64,000 nucleotides of DNA, from assembly GCA_023244895.1 (NCBI GenBank), contig JAHFLL010000001.1, positions 178,476-242,475 on the forward strand. The letters are read 5' to 3'. Below are positions 1-61,171 of this stretch, in pieces (within the stretch, counting starts at the first letter, position 1; each line of letters begins with the position of its first letter). Below the pieces are notes generated by a model. That model was given only the letters and a program-made list of their open reading frames with translations, searched no databases and was not told where the DNA came from. Position numbers and translations under genes: made by a program. The stretch comes from Candidatus Liptonbacteria bacterium (GTDB lineage: Bacteria > Patescibacteriota > Minisyncoccia > UBA6257 > 2-01-FULL-56-20).

Positions 1-1773
1 GGGAACGTGGGTATTTCCACCACCACCCCCTCCGGCAAGCTACATGTTGCCGGTGGCGGTGCGTATATGAGCAACCTGGATGGTTCATATCGTGTCCCGG
101 TCGCGAATACCGAGCTAGTGCCGAAGCAGTATGTAGACAGTGTTTTCCAGCCCATAGCCACGGATGCGCTCTGGACATTAACAGGGTCTGTTATTTATGC
201 ATCTTCCACATCCCGCCAGGTGGCAATAGGCAGTGCGAGCGCAAGTGCTTGGGCCAAGCTTGACGTCAGAGGCGGACAGATAGTTGCAGAACAGTCTGGC
301 GGGACTGGTTATGATAGTTTTGATGGTACGGGCGGCTCGGATGGTTCCAGGGGTTTGCGCGCATCCTGGACCTCTGGTTATGGCGCGAGTCTAGAGGCAT
401 GGGATGGAGGTGCTCCTAAATGGGGTATTTTCCGCTGGAACGCCACCACCTCTTATCCTGTTATGCAGGGACTTTACACTAGCAACAATGTTTACTTTAG
501 CGGGAATATGGGCATAGCTACAACCTCTGCCTCCAATACTCTAGATGTTCAGGGCACGGGCGGATTCACTGGTCAGCTCTACATCCCAGTCACTCCTTTA
601 TCTAGTTCCTCTGCGGCTAGTAAGCAGTATGTAGATACTACTTTTGCCCCTATCGGCACGGTTGGCTTACCGGCTGGCACTACTGGTCAAACTTTGCGCC
701 ACAATGGTTCTACTTGGGTAGCCAATAGCGTGATTTATAACAACGGTTCAACCATAGGGATAGGGACAACAAGTGGTTCTTCTATGTTGACGGTAGCGGG
801 TAGCTTGTCCGCAGTGGCGACCACTACTAGTGTATCTATCTATATGAGCGGAGCAGTAGGCGGTGTGGCGACCATCAGTCAGAATATGAATGGTAGCCCC
901 AACATAATGGGCATCACTACTTCTAATAATGGAGAGTTAATATTGAATGGTTCTGGCTCAACCGGCGTGGTCGCGATAGGCACCATGGCTACCACCTCCG
1001 CAAAACTTACTATTGGCGGCTCCCCAACTATTGCGATTGATGCGGGTGGAGGCAGAATACAAAACTTAGCGACTACTCCAGTTAACGGGAACGACGCCGC
1101 GACCAGGACCTATGTAGATGGCGTGGCTAGCAAGTGGAACTTGTCCAGCACGAACATATATAACAATAATGCGGGAAATATTGGCATAGGTAGCTCAACA
1201 GCGCCGTCGTATAAGTTGCATGTGTTCGGTAGTTTGGGTGCGTCTGGCTCCATAGTCGCCAACGGGGGAATAACTTTAGGCGCAGGTACGAATATCACCG
1301 GTGTCAATAAGATAACCGTGACTACCATTGACCCGGTCTATCGCATTGGAGGAGTAAACTACGCGACCTACGCCGGTTCTTTCGCGGGTGGAGTAAAGGA
1401 AGAGTACTCCGGCAAGGCTAAGCTCAAAGCTCAAATGTCAAAGAACAAAAAAATTGACATTGGAAATTCGGATTTGGACATTACCGGAACCGGTTATGAA
1501 TACGTCATTGACTTCAGTTCGGTTCCGGTCGGCTCCGACTTGTGGGTCTGGTACAAAGCAATTGACTTCTCTAGAGATAATATAGAAGCGGTAGCCACTC
1601 CCTACGGCCAGTCCGCAAGCATCTACTACGTGATAGAGGGCAAGAAGATAATATTCCGGGGAGACAAAGGTGCAGAATTCAGTTTCCGCTTAACCGGTAA
1701 GCGTCATGATTGGCGAGAGTGGCCCACCATGTCTAAGGACCAGGAAGAAAAGCCGAGCTTCATATTGGACTAA
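1..1773 (+). CDS. Gly-rich phage-tail-fibre-like surface protein, 5'-truncated by the window edge (frame is open to base 1)
   Basis: Repeated NIGIG(T/S)xxP...KL(D/H)V motifs and AxxK/RxYVD motifs typical of tail-fibre beta-helix repeats. C-terminal 120 aa (MSKNKKIDIGNSDLDITGT...VPVGSDLW) is paralogous to the C-terminus of the 8862-10169 protein. Confidence 0.7.
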   Translation, partial: GNVGISTTTPSGKLHVAGGGAYMSNLDGSYRVPVANTELVPKQYVDSVFQPIATDALWTLTGSVIYASSTSRQVAIGSASASAWAKLDVRGGQIVAEQSGGTGYDSFDGTGGSDGSRGLRASWTSGYGASLEAWDGGAPKWGIFRWNATTSYPVMQGLYTSNNVYFSGNMGIATTSASNTLDVQGTGGFTGQLYIPVTPLSSSSAASKQYVDTTFAPIGTVGLPAGTTGQTLRHNGSTWVANSVIYNNGSTIGIGTTSGSSMLTVAGSLSAVATTTSVSIYMSGAVGGVATISQNMNGSPNIMGITTSNNGELILNGSGSTGVVAIGTMATTSAKLTIGGSPTIAIDAGGGRIQNLATTPVNGNDAATRTYVDGVASKWNLSSTNIYNNNAGNIGIGSSTAPSYKLHVFGSLGASGSIVANGGITLGAGTNITGVNKITVTTIDPVYRIGGVNYATYAGSFAGGVKEEYSGKAKLKAQMSKNKKIDIGNSDLDITGTGYEYVIDFSSVPVGSDLWVWYKAIDFSRDNIEAVATPYGQSASIYYVIEGKKIIFRGDKGAEFSFRLTGKRHDWREWPTMSKDQEEKPSFILD

Positions 1774-2223
1774 GCGACCCGAATGACCCCAATTGCATCC
1801 GAATGACACTAATGGCGGAGAAGAGAATCGTAGAAAAGGAGTTGTCGTACGTGCTGACGGGTTTGATGTTTAGGGTACATAAAGAACTGGGCAGATATGC
1901 GAGAGAAAGGCAGTATGGGGATGCGCTGGAGAGAGAGTTTAGAACAGCTAAAATGAATTACGAGAGGGAAAAGGCAATTGAAGTCGCGGAGCGCAAGTCT
2001 AATCTTATAGATTTTGTCATAGAAGAAAGGGTCGCAATAGAATTAAAAGCTAAACCGTTTATAACCAAGGAAGATTATTATCAGATTCAGCGTTACCTGC
2101 AGTCAGCTAATCTGGAATTGGGTATGCTGGTCAACTTCTCTCAGGAATATTTAAAGCCTAAAAGAGTGTTGAATGCTAATCTCTATTCGGGTAATTCGGA
2201 TGAATTCGTGGATTAGGGTCGCT
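1773..2223. mobile_element. Small cassette bounded by 8-bp perfect terminal inverted repeats (AGCGACCC / GGGTCGCT) with subterminal CCGAATG/CATTCGG repeats, carrying a GxxExxY ORF
   Basis: TIRs at 1773-1780 and 2216-2223. Direct repeats of ccgaatgac at 1778-1806. Inverted attcggat copies at 2193-2208. ORF-less related copies at 3888-4019, 37660-37751 and 18425-18450. Confidence 0.55.
1803..2216 (+). CDS. GxxExxY family protein (PD-(D/E)XK nuclease superfamily 3-like)
   Basis: 137 aa. N-terminal LSYVLTGLMFRVHKELG...YGDALEREF and C-terminal IELKAK...QIQRYLQSANLELGMLVNF match the GxxExxY/PDDEXK_3 architecture. Both ORF ends lie within the element repeats. Confidence 0.6.
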   Translation: MTLMAEKRIVEKELSYVLTGLMFRVHKELGRYARERQYGDALEREFRTAKMNYEREKAIEVAERKSNLIDFVIEERVAIELKAKPFITKEDYYQIQRYLQSANLELGMLVNFSQEYLKPKRVLNANLYSGNSDEFVD

Positions 2224-2248: not shown

Positions 2249-2313
2249 ATACAGGTAATATCAAAGAGTCGAAACAAAAAAATAAAAGTCAAAAACAAAA
2301 GTCAAAAACTAAT

Positions 2314-2892
2314 ATGGAAAATAAAAATAAAATAATAATCGCGGTTGTGGTCGTAGTAGTAGTGGCTATCGTTGGCTACTGGATTGCTACCAAGTCGGGT
2401 ACGAATACTGCCCAGAACGGTCCAGCGGGGGATGCTCCCGCCGCAGTAGAGACTCCGCAGGGCACCGCCGCCGCCCCAGGCGCGAGCGCGGTAACTGACG
2501 AGGGTAAGGTTGTGACTCAAAGCGGTCAGGTTGCGGACAACACCGCCATTCCTGGCTCTATGGCAGCTCCCCAGCAGTCCGCTCCAATAACTCAGTCTGA
2601 GGCCCCGGCTTCATCCGTAAAGCTCAGCGTGGGTAATTCGGTTTTCTCTCCCACGGACTTCTCGGTAAAGACTGGTTCGGCTACCACCCTGGTGTTAACC
2701 TCGGTGGATTCCATGACTCACGTCTTTAAGTTCCGCGATGCTTCCCTGCAGGCGGTAGCGGTAGGTATTGGCCCGGGCGAAACCCGCCTCATTACCTTCA
2801 ACGCTCCGACCAAGTCAGGAGAGTATGAGTTTTTCTGCGATGTTCCAGGCCACACTGCTCGCGGTGAGACAGGGAAGATGATAGTCAAGTAA
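2314..2892 (+). CDS. Membrane-anchored type-1 copper cupredoxin (plastocyanin/azurin-like)
   Basis: N-terminal poly-Val TM helix and Ala/Pro-rich linker. C-terminal domain has His (THVF), then FFCDVPGH...GKM providing the Cys/His/Met copper ligands. Confidence 0.75.
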   Translation: MENKNKIIIAVVVVVVVAIVGYWIATKSGTNTAQNGPAGDAPAAVETPQGTAAAPGASAVTDEGKVVTQSGQVADNTAIPGSMAAPQQSAPITQSEAPASSVKLSVGNSVFSPTDFSVKTGSATTLVLTSVDSMTHVFKFRDASLQAVAVGIGPGETRLITFNAPTKSGEYEFFCDVPGHTARGETGKMIVK

Positions 2893-3879: not shown

Positions 3880-3887
3880 TTAATAAT

Positions 3888-4019
3888 AGCGACACGAATG
3901 CTACGAATTGCACACGAATTATCCGAAAATGATTTGGGGCATTCGGATGCCATTCGGATCGTTCGGGTTGCTTCCTTTTATTCGGGTCATTCGGATGTAA
4001 TTAGGGTCGTTCGGGTTGC
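3888..4019. repeat. ORF-less MITE-like derivative(s) of the 1773-2223 element
   Basis: agcgacacgaatg at the left end and cattcggatgtaattagggtcgtt at the right end. Multiple attcggat/cgttcgggttgc copies. Confidence 0.5.
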
Positions 4020-4041
4020 TATATATTAGAATTTATTCCAA

Positions 4042-5793
4042 ATGGATTTTTTTAGAAGATTAAAAACCAACTTGAAGATAAGTCGTCATGGCTGGCGCCA
4101 CCTCTTGCCCCATCCGGTTTTTTTGATAGCTTTCCTCATTCTAGCCGTAGTCGTGATCTGGCAGGTAGGTGTTATAACCGAGTTCATATATACCGGGCTC
4201 CAGGTTAAGCCTGCGAGAACCACGCCCACTGAGCCATTAGGGGGCGGCAAGGGGCAATCCGCAACGGAACAACCTCCCGAAGAGCCGAAAACTTTTTGGC
4301 AAAAGATCGGTATTTTTTCTGCCCCAAAAGAAAGTAGCGTGCCAACCGTTTCGGAGGACAGTCCCGGTCCGAACAGATTGCAGTTTTCATTCACCGAACT
4401 TTTTTCCGGTAAGGGTTGGAAAAACGAGTCCCAGTCTAATGTTTATCAGGACTTTTTAACCACCTCCATTTCCGCTCCGCCTGCGTATAGTTGGCAGAAA
4501 ATATCGGTTGATCCGCCCAGCGACGGTTCCGAAATAGTGGCCGCGAAAAGTAATGGCAAAAGAGCCGTGCTTCTAACTTCCGCGGGCAATATTTATTCTT
4601 TTGACTTTGCCGAGAAACTCTCCGCGCAATTAGGCCTTATTACTCCGCCCGCGGGAACAAATCGGGGATTCTTGGATTTTGACGCGGAAGCTGGTAAATG
4701 GGTGGCTGTTCTTTTGGGCAATAATGCCGAATATTTCGCTATTTTGGAAGAAGGGGGTGGGCAATTTAAAAAGTTGGCTGAATTCACTCGTCCGCTTCCG
4801 GGCGGAACGGGCGTAGCCGATCCGGGTATTGCTTGTCGGAACGGAAACTGCCTTTGGCTTTATGGATCCGAATTTTTGACTTTTTCTGATAACTCTCGCC
4901 CTAACCCCAAAAAGGAAGATGTTCTATCAAATTGGTTTAAAGACAAGAGCGTGAAGTCCGTGTCTGTGGCTAAAGCCTTGGGCGGTTGGCTTGTTTCCAA
5001 GACTCATCCGGGCGAGGAGGTTAAGTATGAAACAGATATATATTTATGGGATGGAGAGCTATCGCTTGCGGGCGAGAAGGTTTTCTCTTCCAACTATCCT
5101 GGTTTAGTCAGGTTCGGATATGATCCAAACACAAAGAAACTTCTTGGCATATATGTGGCTTATATCGGGCAAGCGTTTGAATTCAACCTACCCGACAAAT
5201 TTACCTTAGTAAAACCCAAAAACTATTCCAGATTTTTCAACGCTCGCATCTTGGGCGGGGGAGCAGAGGGGAGTATTGAAAGCTTCCCGGATATATTTGG
5301 GCAAGATGGCGCTTGGTGGATAGGCTCAACGCCCGAATCTCCCTCTCCCCGTTTTGTGAAAATATCACCGAGCGGGGGAGCGATTAGTCTGACGCAAGAA
5401 CTTGCCCTGGGCGCCCGCCAGTTATTTTTACTGCCTGGATTTGAGGCGCGAGTAATGTACGCCATCTTAGTTAAAAACGGCATAGTGGAAACGTATCGCC
5501 TAAACGATCGTGGCTACGAACAGAAAGATAAATATATCTGGGAGTCCTCTCGCATTAATAGCGGCGCGTTACCTATAAAGTTCGGACGCATAACCAATGC
5601 GGTTGGCGGGGGAGATATCAGATATTATTTATCTAATAACGGGGGAATCTCTTGGCTGGAGGCCAAGTCAAACGAGTTTGTAAAATTTTCATCGGACACC
5701 AGCGACTTCCGCTGGAAGGCGGAGCTCTCACCCTCTCCCGACCAATATTCCTCGCCCTGGCTCAACATGATTGGGGTAGAGTACTACCAGTAG
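4042..5793 (+). CDS. Hypothetical membrane-anchored protein (N-terminal TM; BNR-like SxxGGxSW motif near the C-terminus)
   Basis: 583-aa ORF. TM helix at residues 25-45. No confident family assignment. Confidence 0.5.
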   Translation: MDFFRRLKTNLKISRHGWRHLLPHPVFLIAFLILAVVVIWQVGVITEFIYTGLQVKPARTTPTEPLGGGKGQSATEQPPEEPKTFWQKIGIFSAPKESSVPTVSEDSPGPNRLQFSFTELFSGKGWKNESQSNVYQDFLTTSISAPPAYSWQKISVDPPSDGSEIVAAKSNGKRAVLLTSAGNIYSFDFAEKLSAQLGLITPPAGTNRGFLDFDAEAGKWVAVLLGNNAEYFAILEEGGGQFKKLAEFTRPLPGGTGVADPGIACRNGNCLWLYGSEFLTFSDNSRPNPKKEDVLSNWFKDKSVKSVSVAKALGGWLVSKTHPGEEVKYETDIYLWDGELSLAGEKVFSSNYPGLVRFGYDPNTKKLLGIYVAYIGQAFEFNLPDKFTLVKPKNYSRFFNARILGGGAEGSIESFPDIFGQDGAWWIGSTPESPSPRFVKISPSGGAISLTQELALGARQLFLLPGFEARVMYAILVKNGIVETYRLNDRGYEQKDKYIWESSRINSGALPIKFGRITNAVGGGDIRYYLSNNGGISWLEAKSNEFVKFSSDTSDFRWKAELSPSPDQYSSPWLNMIGVEYYQ

Positions 5794-17571: not shown

Positions 17572-18428
17572 AAGATTTACACGAAAAACAATTGAAGTTT
17601 TTGGAAGAAACAGCTAATTTTGTCCGACAAGATGTAATTAAGATGTTGCTTGCGGCCGGCTCGGGTCACTCCGCCGGCTCGCTCGGCATGGCGGACGTCA
17701 TGACCGCGCTTTACTTCCATATTTTAAATCACAAACCCAAGCAGCCTAATTTTAAAGATCGCGACCGGGTCGTCTTGTCCAACGGGCACATTTGCCCGGT
17801 GCTGTACGCGGTTTTGGCCCGCGCGGGATATTTCCCCCTGGAAGAGCTCAAGACCCTGCGCCAGCTCGGGTCTCGTCTACAAGGACACCCCCATCGTCTT
17901 GCTTTGCCTGGCATAGAAAATAGTTCCGGTCCGCTTGGTTCTGGACTTTCCCAGGCGATAGGCATGGCGCTTACTGCCAGAATGGATGGGAAAAAACATC
18001 GGATATATTGCCTAATGTCGGACGGAGAACACCAGGAGGGTAATACTTGGGAAGCTATTATGTCCGCGAGCAAGTACCGGCTTTCCAATATTACGGCCAT
18101 TATAGATCGCAACCATATTCAGATAGACGGCTTTACCGAAAACATAATGCCGCTTGAACCCCTTAAGGAGAAGTATGAGTCTTTCGGCTGGCAGGTGCTG
18201 GAAGTAAGCGGCCACAGCTTTGAGTCTATAATTTCCGCCGTCGCGGAAGCGCAAGCTATCCACGAGAGGCCAACCGCAATTATAGCTCACACCATTCCCG
18301 GCATGGGAGTCAGTTTTATGGAAAATGACTATATCTGGCACAGCAAGGCGCCCAAATCGGAAGAAGCCAGGTTGGCGCTTAAAGAGCTGAGAAGTCTGGG
18401 CGGGAAGATAAGGTCGGAACACGAGTAA
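17568..18428 (+). CDS. tkt: Transketolase, N-terminal (TPP pyrophosphate-binding) subunit
   Basis: GSGHSAGSLGMADVMTALYF...SDGEHQEGNTWEA. Split-type transketolase. Confidence 0.85.
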   Translation: MKDLHEKQLKFLEETANFVRQDVIKMLLAAGSGHSAGSLGMADVMTALYFHILNHKPKQPNFKDRDRVVLSNGHICPVLYAVLARAGYFPLEELKTLRQLGSRLQGHPHRLALPGIENSSGPLGSGLSQAIGMALTARMDGKKHRIYCLMSDGEHQEGNTWEAIMSASKYRLSNITAIIDRNHIQIDGFTENIMPLEPLKEKYESFGWQVLEVSGHSFESIISAVAEAQAIHERPTAIIAHTIPGMGVSFMENDYIWHSKAPKSEEARLALKELRSLGGKIRSEHE

Positions 18429-18461
18429 TTTGATCCGAATGCCACGAATTTAAACCATATT

Positions 18462-27954: not shown

Positions 27955-29412
27955 ATGTCTAATAAGTTTTATATAACTACTACTTTGCCGTATGTGAATG
28001 CGGCGCCTCATATTGGATTTGCCTTGGAAATAGTCCAGGCGGATGTTTTGGCCCGTTATGCCAGTTTGCGTGGCAGGGAGGTGGTTTTTAACACCGGTAC
28101 GGATGAGCATGGGCTAAAGATTTATCGCAAGGCCATAGAAGAAGGCAAAGACCCGCAGGCTTACGTGGATGAGTACGCCGCCAAATTTGAGCGTTTAAAA
28201 AATGCGCTAAACGTTAGCTATACTAATTTTGTCCGTACCACCGACCCGCACCACATAAAAGCAGCTCAAGATTTTTGGACCAGGTGTGAGAAGGCGGGGG
28301 ATATATATAAGAAGTTCTATAGCGTTAAATATTGCGTCGGCTGCGAGTTGGAAAAGACCGATTCCGAACTAGTGGAAGGCAGGTGCCCAGTCCATCCTAA
28401 TCTGGAGCTGGAGGCGATTGAAGAGGAAAACTATTTCTTCAGGTTCTCTAAGTATCAACAACCGCTTCTCCATTTATATTCCGAACATCCCGATTTTGTG
28501 GTGCCGGATTATCGTTTAACCGAAATAAAGAATTTTGTTTCCGGCGGACTGCAGGATTTCAGCATTTCCCGACTCAAAGAGAAAATGCCTTGGGGTATAC
28601 CCGTGCCGGGAGACGATAAGCACGTTATGTACGTTTGGTTTGATGCGCTCATAAATTACATTTCCACTCTGGGTTGGCCGGAGAATCAGAAAAAATTTGA
28701 AGAATTCTGGGGAACCGCGGGGCATCCGAATGCGCTCCAGATAGCCGGTAAAGATAATCTGCGCCAGCAGTCCGCCATTTGGCAGGCGATGTTGCTTTCG
28801 GCCGGAGTTCCGACTTCCCGTCAAGTATTGATTCACGGATTTATCACAAGCGAGGGAGAGAAGATGTCAAAGAGCCTAGGCAACGTCGTGGATCCGTTTG
28901 TTATCGTTGACAAATACGGCACGGACGCGCTGCGTTATTGGCTGACCCGGGAGATGCCGACTTTTAATGATGGCGATTTTACGATTGAAAGATTTGAAGA
29001 AAGTTACAACGCCAGTTTAGCGAACGGCCTGGGTAATTTGGTCAGTAGGATAATGAAGATGGCGAGCGCGAATGGAGTTGGGTTGGATTGGGAAAAAGCG
29101 GACGAGGGATTAAATTGGGAGACGGAGGGCTATGCGGAGTATCTGGAAACGGCTCAGATTCAGCAGGCTGCGGAGATAATTTGGCGGGAGGCGCGCAAGG
29201 CAGATCAGTATATTCAGGAGAAGGAGCCATTTAAGGTCATAAAGACCGACCCAGAAAAGGCTAAAAAGGACATCCTTATCCTACTCGGAGAATTATGGAC
29301 TATTGGCCGACTACTCGAACCATTTTTGCCCGAAACGAGTGCGCGCATTATAAACGCCATAAAGGATAATCATGAAATCAGCCAGCCGCTATTTCCCAGG
29401 ATTAGTAGCTAG
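27955..29412 (+). CDS. metG: Methionine--tRNA ligase (short form)
   Basis: [15 protein letters not shown]-type motif, KMSKSLGN, zinc knuckle CVGCELEK...CPVH. Confidence 0.9.
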
Positions 29413-29447
29413 AAGTTAGAATGTAGAAAATAGAAGGTAAAAAATAA

Positions 29448-32941: not shown

Positions 32942-32984
32942 AATTTCCATTACTTACTACTTTCTACCTACTATTTACTAATCT

Positions 32985-35109: not shown

Positions 35110-38100
35110 ATGAAAAAATACGACTTTAAAAAAATTGAAGCCAAGTGGCAGAAGGTCTGGCAGGAGAAGGGTGTTTACGAACCTGCCTTAAAGTCCTCCA
35201 AGGGCAAAAATCCTCCCTTCTATAACTTGATGATGTTTCCGTATCCTTCCGCGGAGGGTCTGCATGTAGGCAATATGTATGCCTTCACGGGTACGGATAT
35301 CTACGGACGTTATAAGCGTATGCAGGGCAACGATGTTTTTGAGCCGATTGGCCTAGACGGCTTCGGAATTCACTCCGAGAACTATGCCATGAAAATCGGG
35401 GCTCACCCCATGAAGCAGGCTAAAGTATCGGAGAAAAGGTTCTATAAGCAGCTGCAGGCAATAGGAAACGGGTTTGCCTGGAACGAGCGCCTGGAAACAT
35501 ATGATCCGGAATATTACCGCTGGACGCAGTGGATTTTCGCGCAGATGTTTAAGGCGGGGTTGGCTTATCGCAAGAAGCAGGCTGTGAACTGGTGTCCATC
35601 CTGCATGACGGTTTTGTCCGACGAGCAGGCCGAGGGCGGAAAGTGCGAACGTTGCAACTCGGTAGTTATTAAAAAAGATTTAGAGCAGTGGTTTTTTAAA
35701 ATTACGGAATACGCGGAAAGACTTTTGCAGAATCTGGACAAGTTGGATTGGTCCGAAAAGGTAAAAATAGCGCAGAAGAATTGGATAGGGAAGTCGGAGG
35801 GGGCGGAGCTGGAATTTGGAATTAAGAATTATGAATTAGGAATCAAAAATGCCCTGGTTATTCATGGTGTGAGTGGGCATAAGAGGGAAAATTGGTTTCC
35901 GTGGCTGAAAGATATTTTAGAGAAAGACGGTTGGCATGTTAGCGTGCCCACTCTACCGACCCCCGATCATCCCAAAATAGAAGAATGGAATATGGTCCTA
36001 AAGAAAGAGTCTACATCCGCCTCTGTTTTAATCGGCCACAGTTTGGGAGCTCCAGCCGCTTTAAACCTTATTCAGACCAGCAATAAAAAGATAGACAGAT
36101 TAATCTTGGTAGCTCCGGTCAATCCTAAACAGGATTGGAGATATTTAAAGTCGGTCTATCCTCAAGCTGATTGGGATGCGGTCAAAAACTTCGCGGATAT
36201 TAAGTTCGATTGGGAAAAAATTACAAAATTAGTCAGACAGGTTGTGGTCTATTATTCCGACAATGACCCATATGTTTCTGCTAAATCGGTGGAGTTCTAT
36301 AAGCAGCATCTACCGAACGCTATTTTTAGGTTCTTGCCCGGCAAGGGCCATTTTAATGAGCGTTATGGGATAACCGAATTTCCGGAAATCCTGGAAGCGG
36401 TTAACCCCAAGGTAAAAGTTTTTACAACCAGGCCGGATACGCTTTTTGGCGCGACTTATGTCGTCTTGGCGCCGGAACACCCATTGATACAGAATCTAGA
36501 AGGTGGAATTAAGAATGTAGTAGAAGTTAAGAACTATATTAAGAAATCTAAGGCTAAGACTGATGAGGAGAGAATAGAGAACAAAGAGAAAACTGGCGTA
36601 GAACTAAGGGGCGTTAAAGCTATAAATCCTGCGACCCAAGGAGAGATATCCATTTGGGTAGCAGATTATGTTTTGTCTTCCTACGGCACAGGTGCAATTA
36701 TGGCCGTCCCGGCACACGATGAGCGCGACCACGAGTTTGCTAGCAAGTACAAACTTCCAATCGTAGAGGTGGTTGATTCTCAAGATAACTCCGACGGCAC
36801 CCTTTGGCTTGGAGGAGGACGCTTAATAAATTCTGGAAGATTTAACGGAGTGGATTCAGAAGAGGCCAAGTGGAAAATAACGGCAGAGGTTGGTGGCAAG
36901 AAAAAGATACAATATCGTCTGCGAGACTGGCTGATTTCGCGTCAGCGCTATTGGGGTCCGCCCATCCCGATGATTCATTGCGAAGGTTGCGAAAAAGCCG
37001 GGAAGGGGGAGCGCAAAGAAATGCCGGGCTGGTACGCGGTGCCCGACAAAGACCTGCCGGTGAAGCTGCCGTTCGTAAAAGATTTTCGTCCGCAAGGCTC
37101 TGGCAGTTCGCCACTCGCGGCATCTAAGGCATTCCGCGATGTGCGCTGTCCGGTCTGTAAAAATAAAGCCAAGCGGGAGACAGACGTTTCGGACACTTTT
37201 TTGGACTCGGCCTGGTACTATTTGCGCTATCCATCCTTAAGCTCCAAGACTGCCAAGGCTAAAGCCTGGGACCCGGAGATAACCAAGAGCTGGTGTCCGG
37301 TTGATATGTATATCGGCGGGGCGGAGCACTCCGTGTTGCACCTGCTATACGTACGCTTTTTGGCCCTAGCCTTACACGACCTGAAACTAGTCAATTTTGG
37401 AGACTCTAAGGCCCCTAAAGGCGAGCCATTCCCCAAATTCCGCGCCCACGGCCTTCTTATTAAGGAGGGAGCTAAAATGTCCAAGTCTAAGGGGAATGTG
37501 GTCAATCCGGACGAATATATCAAGAATTTTGGAGCGGACACCCTGCGCATGTATTTGATGTTTTTAGCTCCCTTTGAACAGGGTGGAGACTTCCGGGACG
37601 CGGGCGTTATGGGTATCAGCCGCTTTTTGGAGAGGGTGTATAAATTTAGTCAAAGAATTAGCGACCCGAATACTACAAATTACATCCGAATTATCCGAAA
37701 AGAGAGAAAGAATTCGGAGCATTCGGATGTATTCGTGGATTTGGATCGCATACTGCATCAGACCATTAAGAAGGTTTCGGATGATCTGGAGAGTTTGAGC
37801 TACAACACGGCCATAAGCGCCATGATGATATTGCTAAATAAGTTCGAGGAAAAGGCAGAGTCAGTCTCGCTACCAAATTGGATAGACTTCTTGAAACTGC
37901 TTGCTCCATTTGCTCCACATCTTTCCGAGGAACTGTTCCAGTCAGCCAAAAAACATAATTCTCAATTCATAATTCGTAATTCAATCCATCTATCCGATTG
38001 GCCCCAATATAACCCAGAGCTTGCCCGGGAATCCAATTTTACTTTGATAGTTCAAATTAACGGCAAGGTGCGTGCGAGCATTGAGGCTCCGATTGGGATA

Positions 38101-38217
38101 TCAGAGAAGAACGCTCTGGCGCTTGCCCTCCGAAATGAGCGCGTGAAAGAACTTGTGTCCGGCGATCCGAAGAGGGTGATATTTATTCCTAATCGTCTGA
38201 TTAACCTGGTAATCTAA
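35110..38217 (+). CDS. leuS: Leucine--tRNA ligase carrying two insertions (alpha/beta-hydrolase domain; in-frame palindromic repeat)
   Basis: HVGNMYAFTGTDIY (HIGH-type), TTRPDTLFGATYVVLAPEHP and AVPAHDERD editing-domain motifs, KMSKSKGN. About 1035 aa versus about 800-860 typical. Confidence 0.9.
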   Translation: MKKYDFKKIEAKWQKVWQEKGVYEPALKSSKGKNPPFYNLMMFPYPSAEGLHVGNMYAFTGTDIYGRYKRMQGNDVFEPIGLDGFGIHSENYAMKIGAHPMKQAKVSEKRFYKQLQAIGNGFAWNERLETYDPEYYRWTQWIFAQMFKAGLAYRKKQAVNWCPSCMTVLSDEQAEGGKCERCNSVVIKKDLEQWFFKITEYAERLLQNLDKLDWSEKVKIAQKNWIGKSEGAELEFGIKNYELGIKNALVIHGVSGHKRENWFPWLKDILEKDGWHVSVPTLPTPDHPKIEEWNMVLKKESTSASVLIGHSLGAPAALNLIQTSNKKIDRLILVAPVNPKQDWRYLKSVYPQADWDAVKNFADIKFDWEKITKLVRQVVVYYSDNDPYVSAKSVEFYKQHLPNAIFRFLPGKGHFNERYGITEFPEILEAVNPKVKVFTTRPDTLFGATYVVLAPEHPLIQNLEGGIKNVVEVKNYIKKSKAKTDEERIENKEKTGVELRGVKAINPATQGEISIWVADYVLSSYGTGAIMAVPAHDERDHEFASKYKLPIVEVVDSQDNSDGTLWLGGGRLINSGRFNGVDSEEAKWKITAEVGGKKKIQYRLRDWLISRQRYWGPPIPMIHCEGCEKAGKGERKEMPGWYAVPDKDLPVKLPFVKDFRPQGSGSSPLAASKAFRDVRCPVCKNKAKRETDVSDTFLDSAWYYLRYPSLSSKTAKAKAWDPEITKSWCPVDMYIGGAEHSVLHLLYVRFLALALHDLKLVNFGDSKAPKGEPFPKFRAHGLLIKEGAKMSKSKGNVVNPDEYIKNFGADTLRMYLMFLAPFEQGGDFRDAGVMGISRFLERVYKFSQRISDPNTTNYIRIIRKERKNSEHSDVFVDLDRILHQTIKKVSDDLESLSYNTAISAMMILLNKFEEKAESVSLPNWIDFLKLLAPFAPHLSEELFQSAKKHNSQFIIRNSIHLSDWPQYNPELARESNFTLIVQINGKVRASIEAPIGISEKNALALALRNERVKELVSGDPKRVIFIPNRLINLVI
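35818..36414 (+). other. Inserted YdeN/RBBP9-type serine hydrolase domain within leuS (residues about 237-435)
   Basis: LVIHGVSGHKRENWFPW...LIGHSLGAPAAL (GxSxG nucleophile elbow)...YYSDNDPYV...GKGHFN (Asp/His). Inserted between the conserved ...SEGAELEF and VKVFTTRPDT LeuS blocks, which are normally only a few residues apart. Confidence 0.65.
37660..37751. repeat. MITE-like palindromic element (ORF-less derivative of the 1773-2223 element) inserted in-frame in leuS
   Basis: agcgacccgaat...catccgaat...attcggagcattcggatgtattcgtggatttggatcgc matches both ends of the 1773-2223 element. Translated as SDPNTTNYIRIIRKERKNSEHSDVFVD in the LeuS frame. Confidence 0.6.
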
Positions 38218-40028: not shown

Positions 40029-40118
40029 TGGCGGAGGGTACAGGATTTGAACCTGTGAGGGGATCTCTCCCCAACCGCATTTCGAGTGCGGCGCACTAGA
40101 CCACTATGCGAACCCTCC
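40029..40118 (-). tRNA. tRNA-Ser (anticodon CGA)
   Basis: Cloverleaf with long variable arm. Anticodon loop cuCGAaa. CCA encoded. Confidence 0.85.
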
Positions 40119-42163: not shown

Positions 42164-42244
42164 GATGAAAAAATAACCACCAGGACCCTCCTTTGAATCC
42201 TGGGCCATAACTCTAACTACTAACTTCTAGCTACTAGTCGCTAA

Positions 42245-42973
42245 TTAGATGCTTTCCGTGCTAACCAGTTGCGCTCTGACCACGTTGCGTTTGGATGCGC
42301 CGCCGATAGGGTAGCAGGTAATCAAAGTTACTTCCGGTGCCGCCGTGGGAGTAGCGAGCAGGGCATTAGTGTCGGTAGGCGTAAGAACCTGCTTGGAAAA
42401 AACTCGAAAGACCATTTTTTTGTTTTGGGCGGTAACGTAAACTTCATCGCCTTCGCTTAGCTTCGGCAGTAGCGAAAAAATATAAGCATAATCTCCGCGA
42501 TACCATGTGGCTTTAGAACTGTGCCCCAGAATTACCGCCCTACCATTTTGCCCGGGTTCCACCGAGCCGGGATACAGCCCCACACCCTCTTCTAAACTAG
42601 CCAAGACGCTAACCTTAGAGCTGTCTTTGGGTGTCACGATGGGAGTGTTTATTTGTATTTTAGGTATGGACAGATAGACTCCCTCGCCCGAAGAAGTATT
42701 GGGCGTATTTCTGGGACTCGCGGAAGTCGTGCCGGCGGTAGTGGTGTTGGGCGCCGATGCCCCGTCGGAAGAAGAGTCAGAAACATGTTGCCCCTCAACC
42801 TCTAAAATATTTCCTTCCCTGAGGTCCGCGCTCGCGAGGTGGGTTCCCAAAAATAAATCGTATCTCAAAATGCGCATATAAGCTCCTCCGTTTAAAAGCA
42901 GGTAGACGAAAATACTGGCTCCAAAGAAAAAGATCAGGAAAATTGTTATTCTCTCTAACCAAACAGTGCTCAT
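42245..42973 (-). CDS. Sortase-family transpeptidase
   Basis: N-terminal TM. ILGHS (His), TLITCYP (TLxTC catalytic Cys), downstream Arg. Confidence 0.8.
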   Translation of the reverse strand: MSTVWLERITIFLIFFFGASIFVYLLLNGGAYMRILRYDLFLGTHLASADLREGNILEVEGQHVSDSSSDGASAPNTTTAGTTSASPRNTPNTSSGEGVYLSIPKIQINTPIVTPKDSSKVSVLASLEEGVGLYPGSVEPGQNGRAVILGHSSKATWYRGDYAYIFSLLPKLSEGDEVYVTAQNKKMVFRVFSKQVLTPTDTNALLATPTAAPEVTLITCYPIGGASKRNVVRAQLVSTESI

Positions 42974-44047: not shown

Positions 44048-47000
44048 CTAGCGTACGAAGTTCCTACCCGGCTTAGCGCGGAGAGTGTCTGGTTCTTTCT
44101 CTTCCGAACGCAAGGCATAGATTATCTTCTCGTAGGGAGTAAGAATTGGTCCGGCCAGCTTAATCACATGGAACTTGAAGGCTGCGAAATAGAACGCTAC
44201 CGAAACCAAAAGTCCCAAACTTAGGACCCACGGGACCGGATTATCCGGACCAGTTACGATATCGGCCGCGCCTAAGACCTGCCCGCGATTCTTTATTTGA
44301 ATGGTCGCGTAAGCATTCTGTACGCCTGAGTTCATTGTAGCATTTACCTGATTGGTAATAAACTTCTGGGCGGAACCCGCGAATATTACCGCGCGGAAAC
44401 GGATAATCTTTTCTTCGTTAACATTTAGCATGCCCAAAGAAAGTCCGCCGCCGGTTATGCCATCCGTCACATTAATGCCGTTCACGCTGGTGCTCTGGGG
44501 CACATAGTAGAGTTCTTGGGGCAGAATATCTTGCACGTTAACCGAGCCGGAAGTGTTGTCTATGTTGCGCACCCTAATTTCAAACTCCAGAACATCTAAG
44601 CCTTGTCCTTCGATGGAGTTGGAGTAGGTGGATTGATTTAGATTGCGATTTAAGACGGACTTAGTAACTTGTAAGTTGCGCGCCGTGCCTCCGCCGTAGT
44701 TATTAACCGTGATGGTCTCGGTATCGGTTGCCTGTCCATATTGATTAGTACAGGTGATGGTGTAAGTAGTAGTGAAGGTCGGATAAACTATTGAAGATCC
44801 ATTCAAGTTTTGATTACCGCTCCAGTTATTTCCGCCAGCTGTGGCGTAACAGGTCGTCGCGTTCTGGGAGTTCCAATAGAGAGTGCTCTGTTGACCGCTG
44901 TTTACGTTAGTAGGGGAGGCGGTCAAGTTTACGGTTGGCAGATTGTAGTTATCATTTACGAAAACCGTGGTCTGCGCGCTAACATTCTGTCCGTTCTGCC
45001 CGGTGCAATTAATGTAGTAGGTTGTGGTCTGGTTGGGGTAGACGGTCTCGCCACCGGAAACATTTTTATTACCGGACCAATATCCGCCGCTCGCGTAACA
45101 AGAGGTGGTATTCTGGCTCGTCCAATTTAAAACGCTGGACTGTCCACGGCTGACTACGCTTGGGTTGGAAGTTAGTGTTACCGAAGGATAGTTACCGTTA
45201 TTACCCACCGTAACCGTGGTCTGCGCGACTGCGCTCTGCCCGGTGCCGTTGTAGCAAGTTATGGAATAAGTGGTGGTGCTGCCCGGGTAAACGACTTCAG
45301 AGCCGGATAGATTTTTATTACCGGACCAGCCGCTAGAGGCGATACAGTAAGTCGCGTTTTGAGAGCTCCAGGTTAAAACCGAAGATTGCCCCTGGTTGAT
45401 GTAGCTAGGGTTGGAATTTATGGTTACGGTAGGAGCTTGAACTTGCTGAACATTTATAACCACGCTGTCGCTCGCATAACCTGCCGCACCCGTACAGGAA
45501 ACAAAATAGGTAGCATTGTAGCTCAGATTCGGCGTAGTCTGACTGCCGCTCGTGCCCGTCCAACCGCCCGGGGACACATTACAAGAAGTGGCGCCAGCAG
45601 AGGTCCAAGAAATAACAGCAGTGGAATTATTGGGAATTGTTATCGGTCCATCCGAACCATTCGCCTTAATGTCGGCTGTAATCTGGGGAGGATTACCAAC
45701 CGTAACCGTGACGCTATCCTGAGCGCTACCTCCGCTTTGCCCAATACAATATACAGAATAAGTTTGCTGGTAAGTTAAGTTTCCGCTGGACTGCGAACCG
45801 CTTGTGCCCGTCCAGCCGCTCGGGGATACGCTACAAGAAGCAGCGTTAGTAGAAGTCCAAGAAATAGTAGCAGAGGTGTTGTAGGGTATGTTTAGAGTAC
45901 TATCTTGTCCATTCGCCTTGATGTCTGCGGTAACAGTAGCTCCCGCTCCCACATTCACAGTTACCGAATCAGAAGCGGAACCACCCGCTCCGCTACAGTT
46001 AACAGTATAAGTTTGAGTAGCGGTTAAGTTTCCGCTGGACTGCGAACCGCTTGTGCCCGTCCAGCCGCCCGGAGTGACCGTGCAAGAGGTAGCATTAGAA
46101 GAAGTCCAAGAAATGGTAGCCGCAGTGTTATTGGGAATTGTGATCGGTCCATCCGAGCCATTCGCCTTAATGTCGGCGGAGATGGTCTGATTAATGCCGC
46201 AATTTTGCGCGTTGACTAATACGGTCACATCATTGGATGCGACTTGGGCATGATTCTTCTGACGATAAGTGTAGTAAGTGTCGCCCAAAGAAACATTAGT
46301 GTCGGTGTAGCTAAAAACATTAAAAGGTTCCGAATCCTGCATTATGACGCTAAAGTTACCCCCACCCACTTTTCTTAAGAGGGTGTTGGCTTGCTGGTTA
46401 GCTACCTGGTTCCAAGAGAGATTGACGCGGGGCGCTCCGTTTATGTTGGAGCAGTATCCGGTCAGGTTGCTGGGCGGGGGTAGCGTAACCGCCCCCACAT
46501 TCACAGTTACCGAATCAGATGCGGAACCGCCTGCTCCGCTACAGTTAACAGTATAAGTTTGGGTAGCGGTTAAGTTTCCGCTGGACTGCGAACCACTTGT
46601 GCCCGTCCAGCCGCCCGGAGTGACCGTGCAAGAGGTAGCGTTAGAAGAAGTCCAAGAAATGGTAGCCGCAGTGTTATTGGGAATTGTGATCGGTCCATCC
46701 GAACCATTCGCCTTGATGTCAGCGGAGATGGTGGGAGGGGGGATGATTACGTTGTCGCCATATATTTTAAGAACAGCCAAGCCGTGGACCGGGCCGATTG
46801 GATTGCCAGTTTCATCCACCGCATTTTCGGCAGTTACCACCAAATAGAATCCGTTACCGGCCGAGAAGTTGCTAACGTTTATATTTCTCGTGTCATTCTT
46901 AATACTGGGAGGATTAACACCTACAAAATAAACCTGGTTATTATTGATAGTTACCTGCCCGCCATCGTCCAGTTCGCTTTCTAAAACCGCGCGGGTAATA

Positions 47001-51427: not shown

Positions 51428-51588
51428 GGGTAGCAGTTATAAGTTAGAATGTAGAAGGCGGAAAACGAAAGAGAGGATTAGGAAGATACAATTTATTTTG
51501 CTGTTTGTTGTGAGTGAGCGTTCGCTCGTTTCGCCCAGGGCATCCCCCTGGGCGAAATTATTTATTATGTGTTAATATTTTTCTCATA

Positions 51589-55085: not shown

Positions 55086-55175
55086 GGAGGGTTGGCAGAG
55101 TGGTCTAACGCGCCGCACTTGAAATGCGGTTGAGGGGAAACCCTCTCGCAGGTTCGAATCCTGCACCCTCCGCCA
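55086..55175 (+). tRNA. tRNA-Ser (anticodon TGA), CCA encoded
   Basis: Long variable arm. Anticodon loop cuUGAaa. T-loop ttcgaat. Confidence 0.85.
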
Positions 55176-60242: not shown

Positions 60243-60390
60243 CGACGTGTTACTTATGACAAGAATCGTAATTGTGGATAAATTAGTGAATTTTTTGGAT
60301 TAGTGTTGTATAATATCGAAGTGTTTTAAGAATGCGCTTGGTTCGGTTTCTCGCTAACTGCTAAATTCTAGCTACTAACTTCTAATCGCA

Positions 60391-61071
60391 ATGATCGCCT
60401 TCCAAAACGTTTATAAACAATACGGCAAAATGTCCGTGTTGGAGGATGTAAATCTGCGCATTAATCCCGGAGAATTTGTCTCTCTAGTGGGGCGCTCTGG
60501 AGCAGGTAAGTCAACCTTAATCAAGCTGTTAATAGGAGAGGAGAAGCCTACCCGGGGCAGAGTGTTTTTCGGTCAGTACGAGGTGAATAAACTACGAGAC
60601 AAGGAGTTGCCAACCCTCCGCAGGCACATTGGTATTGTTTTTCAAGATTTCCGACTTTTACCCAATAAAACTGCCTACGAGAACGTGGCATTCGCTTTGG
60701 AGGTCGCAGGTCGTTTGCAGGGAGAGATAAACGAACTAGTGCCCCAGGTTCTGGACATGGTTGGTTTGGGCGATAGGGGCAAGAATTTTCCCCACGAGCT
60801 TTCGGGAGGGGAAAAACAAAGAGTAGCTATCGCGCGCTCCATGGTTCACCGTCCGGAAGTTATTATTGCGGACGAGCCGACCGGGAATCTAGACCCGATT
60901 CACACCTGGGAAATTATCGCCCTACTCCAAAAGATCAATCAGCTGGGCACGACCTTGATTCTGGCTACTCACGACAAGGATGTGGTTAATAGTTTGGATA
61001 AAAGAGTGGTAACCTTAGACCAGGGCAGAGTTATTCGGGACGAAGAAAAGGGGAAATACATCCTAGTCTAA
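60391..61071 (+). CDS. ftsE: Cell-division ABC ATPase FtsE
   Basis: Walker A GRSGAGKST, LSGGEKQRVAIARS signature, about 226 aa, followed by ftsX. Confidence 0.85.
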   Translation: MIAFQNVYKQYGKMSVLEDVNLRINPGEFVSLVGRSGAGKSTLIKLLIGEEKPTRGRVFFGQYEVNKLRDKELPTLRRHIGIVFQDFRLLPNKTAYENVAFALEVAGRLQGEINELVPQVLDMVGLGDRGKNFPHELSGGEKQRVAIARSMVHRPEVIIADEPTGNLDPIHTWEIIALLQKINQLGTTLILATHDKDVVNSLDKRVVTLDQGRVIRDEEKGKYILV

Positions 61072-61171
61072 ATCAAAAATTAAAAGTCAAAAATAAAAAT
61101 TATAAAAATCCGATTTCCCATCAAGCTCCTGTAATTTTTCATTTTGATTTTTAAATTTTAAATTAATACTA

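What the first reader, a model, noticed from the sequence alone, without database searches (positions are those of the whole stretch)
37660..37751. MITE-like palindromic element inserted in-frame and translated within the essential leuS gene
A roughly 90-bp element with the same ends as the 1773-2223 cassette sits inside leuS in frame, adding about 30 aa (SDPNTTNYIRIIRKERKNSEHSDVFVDLDR) just before the conserved ...ILHQTIKKVSDDLESLSYNTAISAMM block of the anticodon-binding region. This is analogous to Rickettsia palindromic elements that colonise ORFs without disrupting them. It is rare and informative about the element's insertion bias toward multiples of three.
Basis: seen in the sequence. 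Interest (0 to 1): 0.7.

Follow-up and report, generated by a model that had tools for sequence, protein, structure and literature searches.

The report
Palindromic mobile repeat translated within leuS
An 89-base hairpin-forming repeat, one of a family found across the ultra-small "candidate phyla radiation" bacteria, sits in frame inside the leucyl-tRNA synthetase gene and appears to be read through as a 30-residue surface extension, much as the palindromic elements of Rickettsia are.

Summary
Window 37661-37749 (89 nt) is a full-length copy of a palindromic repeat. Two more copies lie in the window: an ORF-less one at 3889-3971, and a split one at 1774-2222 whose arms flank a GxxExxY (PD-(D/E)XK) nuclease gene. 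It lies in frame in an intact 1035-aa leuS and encodes residues 851-880. The site is the variable linker just before the anticodon-binding domain. The closest ortholog (77% identity) keeps the native linker and has no element. The element replaced about 14 native residues, so the net gain is 15 aa, not 30.

A scan of species-representative genomes found 102 stretches with the element core, nearly all in Patescibacteria. Termini are conserved (GCGAYCC...GGRTCGC) and each arm holds four ATCCGAAT units. No target-site duplication was detected. Other copies lie in frame inside ValS (same linker), TsaD, MurG and UvrC. Three further LeuS lineages carry a full or half copy at this linker.

The Rickettsia-palindromic-element analogy holds. 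The proposed bias toward multiples of three does not: lengths are spread evenly modulo 3, so frame preservation reflects selection. Translation and the mobilising enzyme are inferred, not shown. I found no description of this family in the searchable literature.

The parts
37661..37749 (+). Full-length 89-nt palindromic element inside leuS. It is read in frame as LeuS residues 851-880 (SDPNTTNYIRIIRKERKNSEHSDVFVDLDR). Termini are GCGACCC...GGATCGC.
   Evidence: nhmmer model 1-90, E=1.1e-18. Hairpin -39.6 kcal/mol, z=-8.1. Shared arms with the other window copies. Absent from the closest ortholog.
37661..37699 (+). Left arm: degenerate ATCCGAAT units (GCG ACCCGAAT / ACAAATT / ATCCGAAT / ATCCGAAA). 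Read as (S)DPNTTNYIRIIRK.
37700..37712 (+). Unpaired 13-nt loop of the hairpin. This is the position where full-length cassettes carry the GxxExxY ORF.
   Evidence: Fold. The cassette halves meet here in the profile.
37713..37749 (+). Right arm (ATTCGGAG / ATTCGGAT / ATTCGTGG / ATTTGGAT CGC). Read as NSEHSDVFVDLDR, the same frame in which the cassette ORF reads its own right arm (NSDEFVD*). The cassette's TAG is TTG here.
35110..38217 (+). leuS, intact 1035-aa ORF that hosts the element.
   Evidence: TIGR00396 E=1.9e-258. Pfam domains. AlphaFold mean pLDDT 86.
1774..2222 (+). ORF-carrying copy of the same element. Left half 1774-1815 (model 1-42), right half 2172-2222 (model 38-90). They flank a 137-aa GxxExxY / PDDEXK_3 nuclease ORF at 1803..2216. 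The element starts directly at the stop codon of the upstream gene (7..1773).
3889..3971 (+). Intergenic ORF-less full-length copy. It lies between the gene ending at 3879 and the gene starting at 4042.
   Evidence: nhmmer E=7e-15. Sequence and ORFs. The -55.6 kcal/mol, z=-5.7 fold is of 3883-4028 and also takes in the extra right arm that follows.
3977..4022 (+). Extra tandem right arm following the 3889 copy.
   Evidence: I2, I3; model 48-87, E=2e-5.
18427..18453 (+). Possible solo arm remnant (GATCCGAATGCCACGAAT), intergenic. Weak evidence.
   Evidence: nhmmer E=0.04; sequence.

Best explanation
**What it is.** The segment is a non-autonomous copy of a roughly 90-nt palindromic, probably mobile, repeat family of Patescibacteria (CPR). 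The family has:
- conserved termini, GCGAYCC...GGRTCGC;
- arms made of four ATCCGAAT units on the left and four ATTCGGAT units on the right;
- a variable loop, which in some copies holds a GxxExxY PD-(D/E)XK nuclease gene.

**What happened here.** After this lineage split from its closest sampled relative, a copy replaced about 44 nt of the native leuS linker. That linker lies between the catalytic/stem-contact part and the anticodon-binding domain. The reading frame was kept.

**How it behaves now.** The element is transcribed and translated with leuS. The left arm gives a short helix and the right arm extends the following native helix. The result is a hydrophilic 30-residue helical-hairpin protrusion at a length-variable, solvent-exposed linker that tolerates it. 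Only frame-preserving, stop-free events in such tolerant loops survive in essential genes.

**Shown.** Family membership, in-frame position, intact leuS, absence in the ortholog, recurrence in other genes and lineages.

**Inferred.**
- Translation and retained LeuS function.
- Timing of the event.
- Mobility. The mechanism is unknown. I favour mobilisation in trans by the loop-encoded GxxExxY nuclease, on association alone, at perhaps 0.3-0.4.
For: **The element and its family.**
- The ends are shared with two other window copies, and the motif is enriched.
- The hairpin is far more stable than shuffles (z=-8.1).
- The family profile matches end to end.
- The element core was found in 102 stretches of GTDB representative genomes. 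My own arithmetic gives about 0.5 expected by chance (596 Gb x 2 strands x 31 gap lengths / 4^23). Nearly all are Patescibacteria.
- Termini and unit architecture are conserved.

**Host gene and empty site.**
- leuS is intact.
- P0002 (77% identity) has no element. Its linker has the same length and pattern (S..RP[KR].S..EILR.LN.TIKKV) as at least seven more distant LeuS, so it represents the ancestral state.

**Recurrence at this linker.**
- Full copy in P0045 LeuS (L104:3815-3889, E=1.5e-5).
- Right half only in P0081 LeuS.
- Left half only in P0054 LeuS.
- Three of the lineages share the same right junction...CG(C/G) | (I/L)(L/F)HQ.

**In-frame copies in other genes.** ValS at the equivalent linker, TsaD, MurG and UvrC all have Pfam domains on both sides of the element.

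**Structure prediction.** AlphaFold gives helix 853-865, a loop, then a helix from 872 that continues into the native helix to 894. pLDDT is 68/57/73 across the insert against 94-96 on either side.

**No disrupted genes seen.** Among 24 copies with long ORFs on both sides that were not continuous, all looked like ordinary gene boundaries. That judgement is by eye, without a homology check.

**Link to the nuclease.**
- The cassette halves meet at the loop.
- 5 of 10 GxxExxY hits in the loci are flanked by element arms.
- N- and C-terminal tails of about 120 GxxExxY homologs read like translated arms: MHTNDTNK......YSDHSDA...FVDSDKFVVSNR.
Against: - No target-site duplication of 2 nt or more above chance, so it is not a textbook MITE.
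- The event is a replacement of 44 nt by 89 nt, not a clean insertion. The exact junctions cannot be fixed with an ortholog at only 77% identity.
- Mobility is inferred from distribution, not observed. No closely related filled/empty pair was available.
- Translation is not demonstrated.
- The paired blocks are invariant and the spacers are not complementary. There is therefore no covariation evidence for a selected structure.
- The profile E-value for the leuS copy is partly circular because of how the training copies were chosen.
- The typical element has only 1.6 of 6 frames open, so it is not intrinsically built to be coding.
Confidence: 0.85

Rival explanations
1. The segment is simply a lineage-specific native LeuS linker, or a low-complexity expansion. 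Its likeness to the repeats would then be coincidental, or the repeats would derive from it.
For: The linker is intrinsically variable in length (51-76 aa between markers) and low in complexity in many lineages. The end of the segment (DLDR ILHQ) resembles the native consensus (E/D)LER-LLHQ.
Against: - The DNA matches two other non-coding or differently coding copies in the window, and a family profile, over its whole length.
- The arms are mutually complementary (z=-8.1), which a native linker has no reason to be. The native linker of the ortholog gives z=+1.3.
- The closest ortholog keeps a different linker that is conserved across lineages.
Confidence: 0.02
2. The element is not part of the mature product. 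It would be removed from the mRNA (hairpin-triggered excision and religation, or an intron), skipped by translational bypassing, or spliced from the protein like a mini-intein.
For: It forms a very stable terminal-inverted-repeat hairpin in the mRNA. Hairpin-triggered excision of transposons from mRNAs has recently been described in animals (PMC12779559, seen).
Against: - There is no intron or other RNA family match.
- 30 aa is far too small for an intein, and intein junction residues are absent.
- All ten in-gene copies in recognisable genes that I found are stop-free and frame-preserving, although the average element has stops in most frames. That is what is expected if they must be translated.
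- No frame-breaking copies inside genes were seen. The search for them was by eye only, and the in-frame set is ascertained by being stop-free.
Confidence: 0.04
3. The copy has been exapted. The mRNA hairpin (RNase III site, ribosome pause, stability element) or the extra helical hairpin in LeuS (a new interaction surface) would now serve a function and be maintained by selection.
For: The hairpin is still nearly intact. The same linker carries element-derived sequence in several LeuS lineages and in a ValS. Intergenic copies sit precisely between operon genes with A-rich 5' and T-rich 3' flanks, compatible with a role in RNA processing or termination.
Against: - The closest relative does without it.
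- Other lineages keep only decayed halves with no hairpin (z about 0), which looks like neutral decay.
- The insert has the lowest model confidence in that region.
- There is no covariation.
Confidence: 0.08
4. The insertion is ancient. It would have been inherited from a common ancestor of the LeuS lineages that carry element sequence at this linker, and lost precisely in the closest relative, rather than being recent and independent.
For: Three lineages share the same right junction immediately before (I/L)(L/F)HQTIKKV.
Against: - The closest relative has a linker homologous in length and pattern to that of many deeper-branching LeuS. A precise loss would not recreate that.
- The carriers are only 52-57% identical to the query, and most intermediate lineages lack the element.
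- The window copy is full length with an intact hairpin, whereas the others are halves or diverged.
Confidence: 0.07

Closest known systems
Rickettsia palindromic elements (RPE; Ogata et al. 2000, 2002, as summarised in PMC10969869 and PMC3184786)
   Same: Short palindromic repeats, about 105-150 bp there and about 80-105 bp here. They occur in small, host-dependent bacterial genomes and are found both between genes and in frame inside unrelated housekeeping genes. They are translated with the host protein, apparently at positions compatible with the fold. No transposase is assigned.
   Different: - Host phyla are unrelated, and the sequence architecture here is distinct (GCGAYCC termini, 4+4 ATCCGAAT units). 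Sequence similarity to RPEs was not tested here.
- This family spans many candidate phyla rather than one genus.
- A fraction of copies carry a PD-(D/E)XK (GxxExxY) gene in the loop, which RPEs are not reported to do.
- About 9-14% of sampled copies are in frame inside ORFs, against a much larger share reported for RPE-1.
Bacterial MITEs (e.g. Correia/CREE of Neisseria, ERIC, RUP, Nezha), as defined in PMC3184786
   Same: Small size, no transposase, inverted-repeat ends, multiple copies. They fold into long hairpins when transcribed. They are mostly intergenic, with occasional in-frame fusions to ORFs.
   Different: - No target-site duplication was detected.
- The whole element is a palindrome of arrayed 8-nt units rather than two TIRs around a unique core.
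- The related ORF-bearing form encodes a small nuclease of unknown function, not a recognised IS transposase.
REP/BIME elements and their RAYT (Y1/HUH) transposases
   Same: Palindromic intergenic repeats without target-site duplications. They are wedged between genes of operons and are often clustered or tandem (compare the duplicated arms at 3977-4022).
   Different: REPs are 20-40 nt with a conserved GTAG-type head and are tied to a RAYT gene. Here the unit is about 90 nt with GCGAYCC heads. The associated gene is a PD-(D/E)XK protein. No RAYT was looked for or seen.
Inteins and homing-endonuclease genes in essential genes
   Same: Selfish insertions tolerated inside essential genes because the reading frame is kept. 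A nuclease gene is associated with the element. In one related locus (L101) the whole nuclease ORF lies in frame within a host ORF.
   Different: There is no Hint/splicing domain and no splicing junction residues. The leuS copy has no ORF of its own. The insert is presumably retained in the mature protein.

Membership tests
MITE (miniature inverted-repeat transposable element) | Small size (under about 400 bp) and no transposase gene | tested here: met
   89 nt with no ORF of its own.
MITE (miniature inverted-repeat transposable element) | Terminal inverted repeats; folds into a long hairpin | tested here: met
   GCGACCC...GGATCGC termini. Hairpin -39.6 kcal/mol, z=-8.1.
MITE (miniature inverted-repeat transposable element) | Flanking target-site duplication (direct repeats) | tested here: not met
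   In 68 anchored copies, matching flanks were 5 observed vs 4.5 expected for k=2, 3 vs 1.4 for k=3, and 0 for k=4. The leuS copy has TA / AT flanks and replaced native sequence.
MITE (miniature inverted-repeat transposable element) | Multiple dispersed copies, with presence/absence at orthologous sites | tested here: met
   3 copies plus extra arms in 64 kb. 109 full-length copies in 815 kb of loci, a set that includes the window and the LeuS loci. The ortholog L001 is empty. No closely related filled/empty pair was available.
MITE (miniature inverted-repeat transposable element) | A parent autonomous element with the same ends that encodes the transposase | tested here: inconclusive
   Copies with the same ends carry a GxxExxY PD-(D/E)XK gene. 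The predicted fold is only generically Cas4/RecB-nuclease-like (best Foldseek E=2.5e-3, TM 0.45-0.50). No transposase activity is known for this family.
RPE-like protein-coding palindromes | Palindromic repeat lying in frame inside an otherwise intact protein-coding gene | tested here: met
   The same holds for ValS, TsaD, MurG and UvrC elsewhere.
RPE-like protein-coding palindromes | Insert placed where it is compatible with the protein fold (surface) | tested here: met
   Prediction only. AlphaFold shows a helical-hairpin extension between confident helices, with pLDDT 57-73 against 94-96. The site is a length-variable linker in 120 homologs.
RPE-like protein-coding palindromes | Sequence homology to the Rickettsia RPE families | not tested
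   No RPE consensus was available in the tools. The host phylum and motif architecture differ, so I claim analogy, not membership.
REP/RAYT | 20-40-nt palindrome with a conserved GTAG/CTAC head and a linked RAYT (Y1 transposase) gene | tested here: not met
   The unit is about 90 nt with GCGAYCC heads. The associated gene is PDDEXK_3. A RAYT gene in the rest of the genome was not searched for.
Intein / intron | Self-splicing domain or structured intron RNA with the appropriate junctions | tested here: not met
   Only 30 aa. No Pfam domain lies in the insert. No Rfam match at E up to 5 other than noise.
GxxExxY protein family (TIGR04256 / PF13366), for the cassette ORF at 1803..2216 | Match above the curated cut-offs | tested here: met
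   PF13366: 79.5 bits against a cut-off of 22. TIGR04256: 73.8 bits against 35. The leuS copy itself carries no such ORF.

The most novel reading that the evidence does not exclude
The ATCCGAAT-unit hairpin elements and the GxxExxY PD-(D/E)XK nuclease genes carried in their loops would together form a previously undescribed mobile-element system of CPR bacteria. It would leave no target-site duplication and would be driven by the nuclease. It would spread across candidate phyla and settle between operon genes. It would also repeatedly remodel surface loops of essential proteins, with the class Ia aminoacyl-tRNA synthetase linker as a hot spot. Occasionally it would place a whole nuclease ORF in frame inside a host protein (L101). 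This would give the large, uncharacterised GxxExxY family a function, and it would be a second, much broader case of protein-coding palindromes after Rickettsia.
Probability: 0.35. Interest if true: 0.8.

Novelty: new variant of a known kind. Interest (0 to 1): 0.65.

Why it matters
**Breadth of the phenomenon.** In-frame palindromic repeats inside essential genes have been treated as close to a Rickettsia peculiarity. Here the same behaviour appears in a different, very large radiation of reduced-genome bacteria, with one element family conserved across many candidate phyla.

**Annotation.** It explains many odd peptide stretches in CPR proteins, such as DPN/HPN, IRIIR, SEHSD and FVDSDR, and the length variation of their housekeeping enzymes.

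**Structure.** It marks which protein loops tolerate 15-30 extra residues.

**A testable candidate enzyme.** It ties an abundant uncharacterised nuclease family (GxxExxY) to a defined DNA element with conserved ends. That gives a concrete candidate for the long-open question of what moves such transposase-less palindromes.

**Practical consequences.** These repeats fragment CPR assemblies. Many GxxExxY genes sit on contigs of 1 kb or less. The repeats also inflate "hypothetical" ORF calls.

Tried and rejected
- **Peptide searches for other host proteins failed.** It found no candidate for a 60-aa concatenate of two insert peptides. An exhaustive phmmer search of the 30-aa peptide against 1.84 billion representatives gave no hit at E up to 0.001. 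The in-frame cases came from the DNA scan instead.
- **Rfam.** No family matched.
- **Viral contigs.** No copy of the core pattern was found.
- **Solved structures for the GxxExxY protein.** There were no sequence hits. The fold search gave only weak, generic Cas4/RecB-like nuclease matches, so no mechanism could be read from it.
- **Target-site duplications.** None were found.
- **Multiple-of-three length bias.** None was found.
- **"Built to be coding" hypothesis.** Elements have 1.6 of 6 frames open, against 0.92 for shuffles and 2.16 for random genomic 90-mers. This is only a weak effect.
- **Covariation.** Paired blocks are invariant and spacers are non-complementary, so the test is uninformative.
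- **The GIKNYELGIKN stretch at 35819-35843.** I considered it as a second element. Orthologs show IKN(S/Y) is native there, so I dropped it.
- **The P0010 and P0067 LeuS inserts.** They do not match the profile.
- **Literature.** Searches for GxxExxY, PDDEXK_3, and CPR or Patescibacteria with palindromic elements or MITEs found nothing relevant.
- **Metagenome scan not used.** No closer leuS relative exists in the 5.8-billion-protein index, so a filled/empty pair was unlikely to be found.
Full report
**1. What is in the sequence**

Window 35110..38217 (+) is one uninterrupted 1035-aa ORF. It is bacterial leucyl-tRNA synthetase: TIGR00396, E=1.9e-258. It has the editing domain (aa 432-593) and the anticodon-binding domain (aa 882-994). 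HVGN and KMSKS motifs are visible in the translation. Bases 37660-37749 encode SDPNTTNYIRIIRKERKNSEHSDVFVDLDR (residues 851-880). The conserved ILHQTIKKVSDDLESLSYNTAISAMM block follows directly.

**2. Is it a repeat?**

Yes.
- The left arm belongs to a three-copy family (1772-1814, 3887-3929, 37659-37701). The leuS arm is 86% identical to the 3887 copy.
- The leuS left arm is 91% complementary over 23 nt to the right arm of the 1773-2223 cassette (D6, I2, I3, I15; alignment).
- CATCCGAAT occurs 7 times in the window against 0.61 expected.
- The segment folds into a hairpin of -39.6 kcal/mol, z=-8.1, with GCGA pairing to TCGC at the extreme ends.
- The cassette's ORF (1803..2216) is a GxxExxY / PDDEXK_3 protein. 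It starts inside the left arm and ends inside the right arm.
- The cassette reads the right arm as ...NSDEFVD-stop. leuS reads its right arm in the same frame as ...HSDVFVDLDR. The cassette's TAG is TTG in leuS.

**3. The family outside this genome**

I scanned one genome per GTDB species for CATCCGAAT-N3-CCGAA-N5-35-ATTCGGATG. This gave 102 stretches. My arithmetic gives about 0.5 expected by chance.

Almost all are Patescibacteria: Saccharibacteria, and the Doudna-, Roizman-, Collier-, Staskawicz-, Portnoy-, Magasanik- and Komeilibacteria. There are a few MAGs labelled Gammaproteobacteria, Leptolinea or Omnitrophota; I did not verify those labels. The window's own genome was not among the representatives.

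Extending the arms shows strongly conserved termini, GCGAYCC(G/T)AAT ... ATT(C/A)GGATCGC, and lengths of 78-121 nt, mostly 83-99. The alignment shows each arm as four ATCCGAAT (or ATTCGGAT) units separated by short, non-complementary spacers, around a variable loop. The paired blocks never vary, so there is no covariation evidence either way. The architecture looks more like arrayed protein-binding sites than a selected RNA helix; that is my inference.

A profile of 59 such elements from other genomes gave these matches in the window:
- the leuS segment end to end (37661-37749, model 1-90, E=1.1e-18);
- 3889-3971 (E=7e-15);
- an extra right arm at 3977-4018;
- the two cassette halves, 1774-1815 (model 1-42) and 2172-2222 (model 38-90).

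The cassette is therefore the same element with the nuclease gene in its loop. Caveat: the training copies were selected with a pattern taken from the leuS copy, so part of its score is circular. The 3889 copy does not fit that pattern and still matches.

No Rfam family matches. No copy was found in viral contigs.

**4. Orthologs**

120 LeuS homologs were aligned. The segment lies in a linker whose length between two invariant markers ranges from 51 to 76 aa. It is 72 aa here and 57 aa in the closest relative, P0002 (77% identity).

P0002's DNA (L001) shows no element and no hairpin. Its linker, RQVAQSSKQPKEAEPEFLRTLNK, has the same length and pattern as those of at least seven more distant LeuS (P0004, P0009, P0016, P0017, P0058, P0071, P0084). 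It therefore represents the ancestral state.

Comparing the two genes codon by codon, about 14 native residues (about 44 nt) were replaced by the 89-nt element. The net change is +45 nt, or +15 aa. This is a replacement that happens to preserve the frame, not a 90-nt in-frame insertion.

**5. Recurrence**

The same linker carries element sequence in other LeuS lineages:
- a full copy in P0045 (L104:3815-3889, E=1.5e-5, still a strong hairpin);
- only the right half in P0081 (E=6e-6);
- only the left half in P0054 (E=7e-4).

The window, P0081 and P0045 share the same right junction, ...CG(C/G) | (I/L)(L/F)HQ. These carriers are only 52-57% identical to the query and most intervening lineages lack the element. 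I therefore favour repeated independent hits, perhaps helped by microhomology at the conserved Arg codon, followed by decay.

Elsewhere, full-length copies lie in frame with Pfam domains on both sides:
- ValS, between tRNA-synt_1 and Anticodon_1, which is the equivalent linker;
- TsaD, whose peptide SNPKNPNYIRIIRKAGINSEHSDGFVVSNR is very like the leuS one;
- MurG;
- UvrC.

Copies also lie in a membrane glycosyltransferase-like protein. At one site in that protein, L101 has a whole GxxExxY cassette in frame, L040 has a short element and L049 has nothing.

Of 109 full-length copies in 815 kb of loci, 15 have a stop-free frame with at least 60 codons on each side. That set includes the window and the LeuS loci fetched on purpose. 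About 10 of the 15 are inside recognisable genes. Different reading frames are used in different genes.

The 24 copies with long but discontinuous ORFs on both sides look like ordinary gene boundaries. Examples are secD/secF, rpsL/rpsG and nusG/rplK. The upstream stop lies 2-5 nt before GCGA or about 10 nt inside the element, and the next start codon follows directly. That judgement is by eye, with no homology check. Flanks are A-rich on the 5' side and T-rich on the 3' side.

**6.

- Lengths modulo 3 are 16/26/17 and 19/30/19, and the leuS copy is 89 nt. There is no bias toward multiples of three.
- No target-site duplication was seen.
- The average element has 1.6 of 6 frames open, against 0.92 for shuffles and 2.16 for random genomic 90-mers. 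The leuS copy has 4 of 6 open.

Frame preservation and openness in genes are thus best explained by selection on survivors.

**7. Protein consequence**

An AlphaFold model of the whole LeuS has mean pLDDT 86. It predicts helix 830-850, then insert helix 853-865, a loop, and a helix from 872 that runs into the native helix to 894. pLDDT is 68/57/73 across the insert against 94-96 on either side.

This is a helical-hairpin protrusion at the junction to the anticodon-binding domain. From established knowledge of bacterial LeuRS, the anticodon is not an identity element, which fits tolerance of changes here. I could not check tRNA contacts.

The identical protein is on record on four contigs of different lengths. 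The leuS DNA of the one other contig I read, from an ENA metagenome assembly, is identical to the window. It is therefore not an assembly artefact.

**8. The nuclease link**

About 120 GxxExxY homologs, mostly from Patescibacteria and often on very short contigs, begin and end with arm-like peptides: MHTNDTNK......YSDHSDA...FVDSDKFVVSNR. In the fetched loci, 5 of 10 GxxExxY hits are flanked by element arms. The predicted fold (pLDDT 89) is a compact PD-(D/E)XK nuclease, with only weak Cas4/RecB-like matches and no solved relative by sequence. That this protein mobilises the elements is an inference from association only.

**9. Comparison and novelty**

The behaviour matches Rickettsia palindromic elements and intragenic MITEs as reviewed in PMC10969869 and PMC3184786. 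It fails the MITE criterion of target-site duplications. It differs from REP/RAYT in size, head sequence and associated gene.

I found no description of this family, or of GxxExxY mobility, in the searchable literature. That library is incomplete.

My verdict is that this is a real, correctly spotted feature. It is a new variant of a known kind.

Noticed in passing
window 35854-36396 (LeuS aa 249-429): A serine-hydrolase domain is inserted in LeuS between the catalytic-core strand (GAELEF) and the CP1 editing domain. It matches PF06821 at E=8e-20, shows GHSLG, SDNDP and GKGH motifs, and has AlphaFold pLDDT around 90. About half of the 120 best LeuS homologs have it, and about 33 also carry a NUDIX domain. 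A hydrolase embedded in an aminoacyl-tRNA synthetase may deserve its own study.
   Followed up: partly
window 37948-37985 (LeuS KKHNSQFIIRNS) and 35819-35843: This is a second variable LeuS loop, with an AT-rich AATTC-type repeat. It is 88% complementary over 25 nt to 35819-35843. Other lineages carry different low-complexity inserts at the same loop. The 35819 stretch itself is mostly native (IKNS/IKNY in orthologs).
   Followed up: partly
L101:3245-5335 (also L040, L049): In a GTDB locus, an entire GxxExxY ORF with its arms lies in frame inside a membrane glycosyltransferase-like ORF. A homolog has a short element at that site, and another homolog has nothing there.
   Followed up: partly
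L002-L103, many loci (e.g. L039, L065, L080, L087, L100): Intergenic copies are wedged exactly between adjacent operon genes (rpsL/rpsG, nusG/rplK, secD/secF and others). The upstream stop lies 2-5 nt before GCGA or about 10 nt inside the element. Flanks are A-rich on the 5' side and T-rich on the 3' side, which is terminator-like or reflects an AT-rich target.
   Followed up: partly
window 29400-29442, 32950-32982, 42212-42245, 51431-51456, 60354-60386: This is another dispersed short repeat family (TAGNAGCTAGAAGTTAGAATGTAGAA and its reverse complement), mostly just outside genes.
   Followed up: no
window 2254-2334 and 61065-61106: A-rich repeats with a 13-nt period (AAAAGTCAAAAAC) lie directly downstream of the cassette and at a second site.
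   Followed up: no
window 40029-40118 (-) and 55086-55175 (+): Two 90-nt tRNA-Ser genes (anticodons CGA and TGA) form a 90-nt, 86%-complementary inverted pair 15 kb apart.
   Followed up: no
window 45442-46732: Four copies of a roughly 244-nt repeat at about 250-nt spacing (65-96% identity). Presumably these are repeated protein domains (D1).
   Followed up: no
L048:1488-2111, L103:1464-2146, L045:3768-4301: Arms are often tandemly multiplied next to GxxExxY genes: 2-3 left arms or 2 right arms. In L048 and L103 the right end of an element runs into the GFTLIE prepilin-type N-terminus of the next gene.
   Followed up: no
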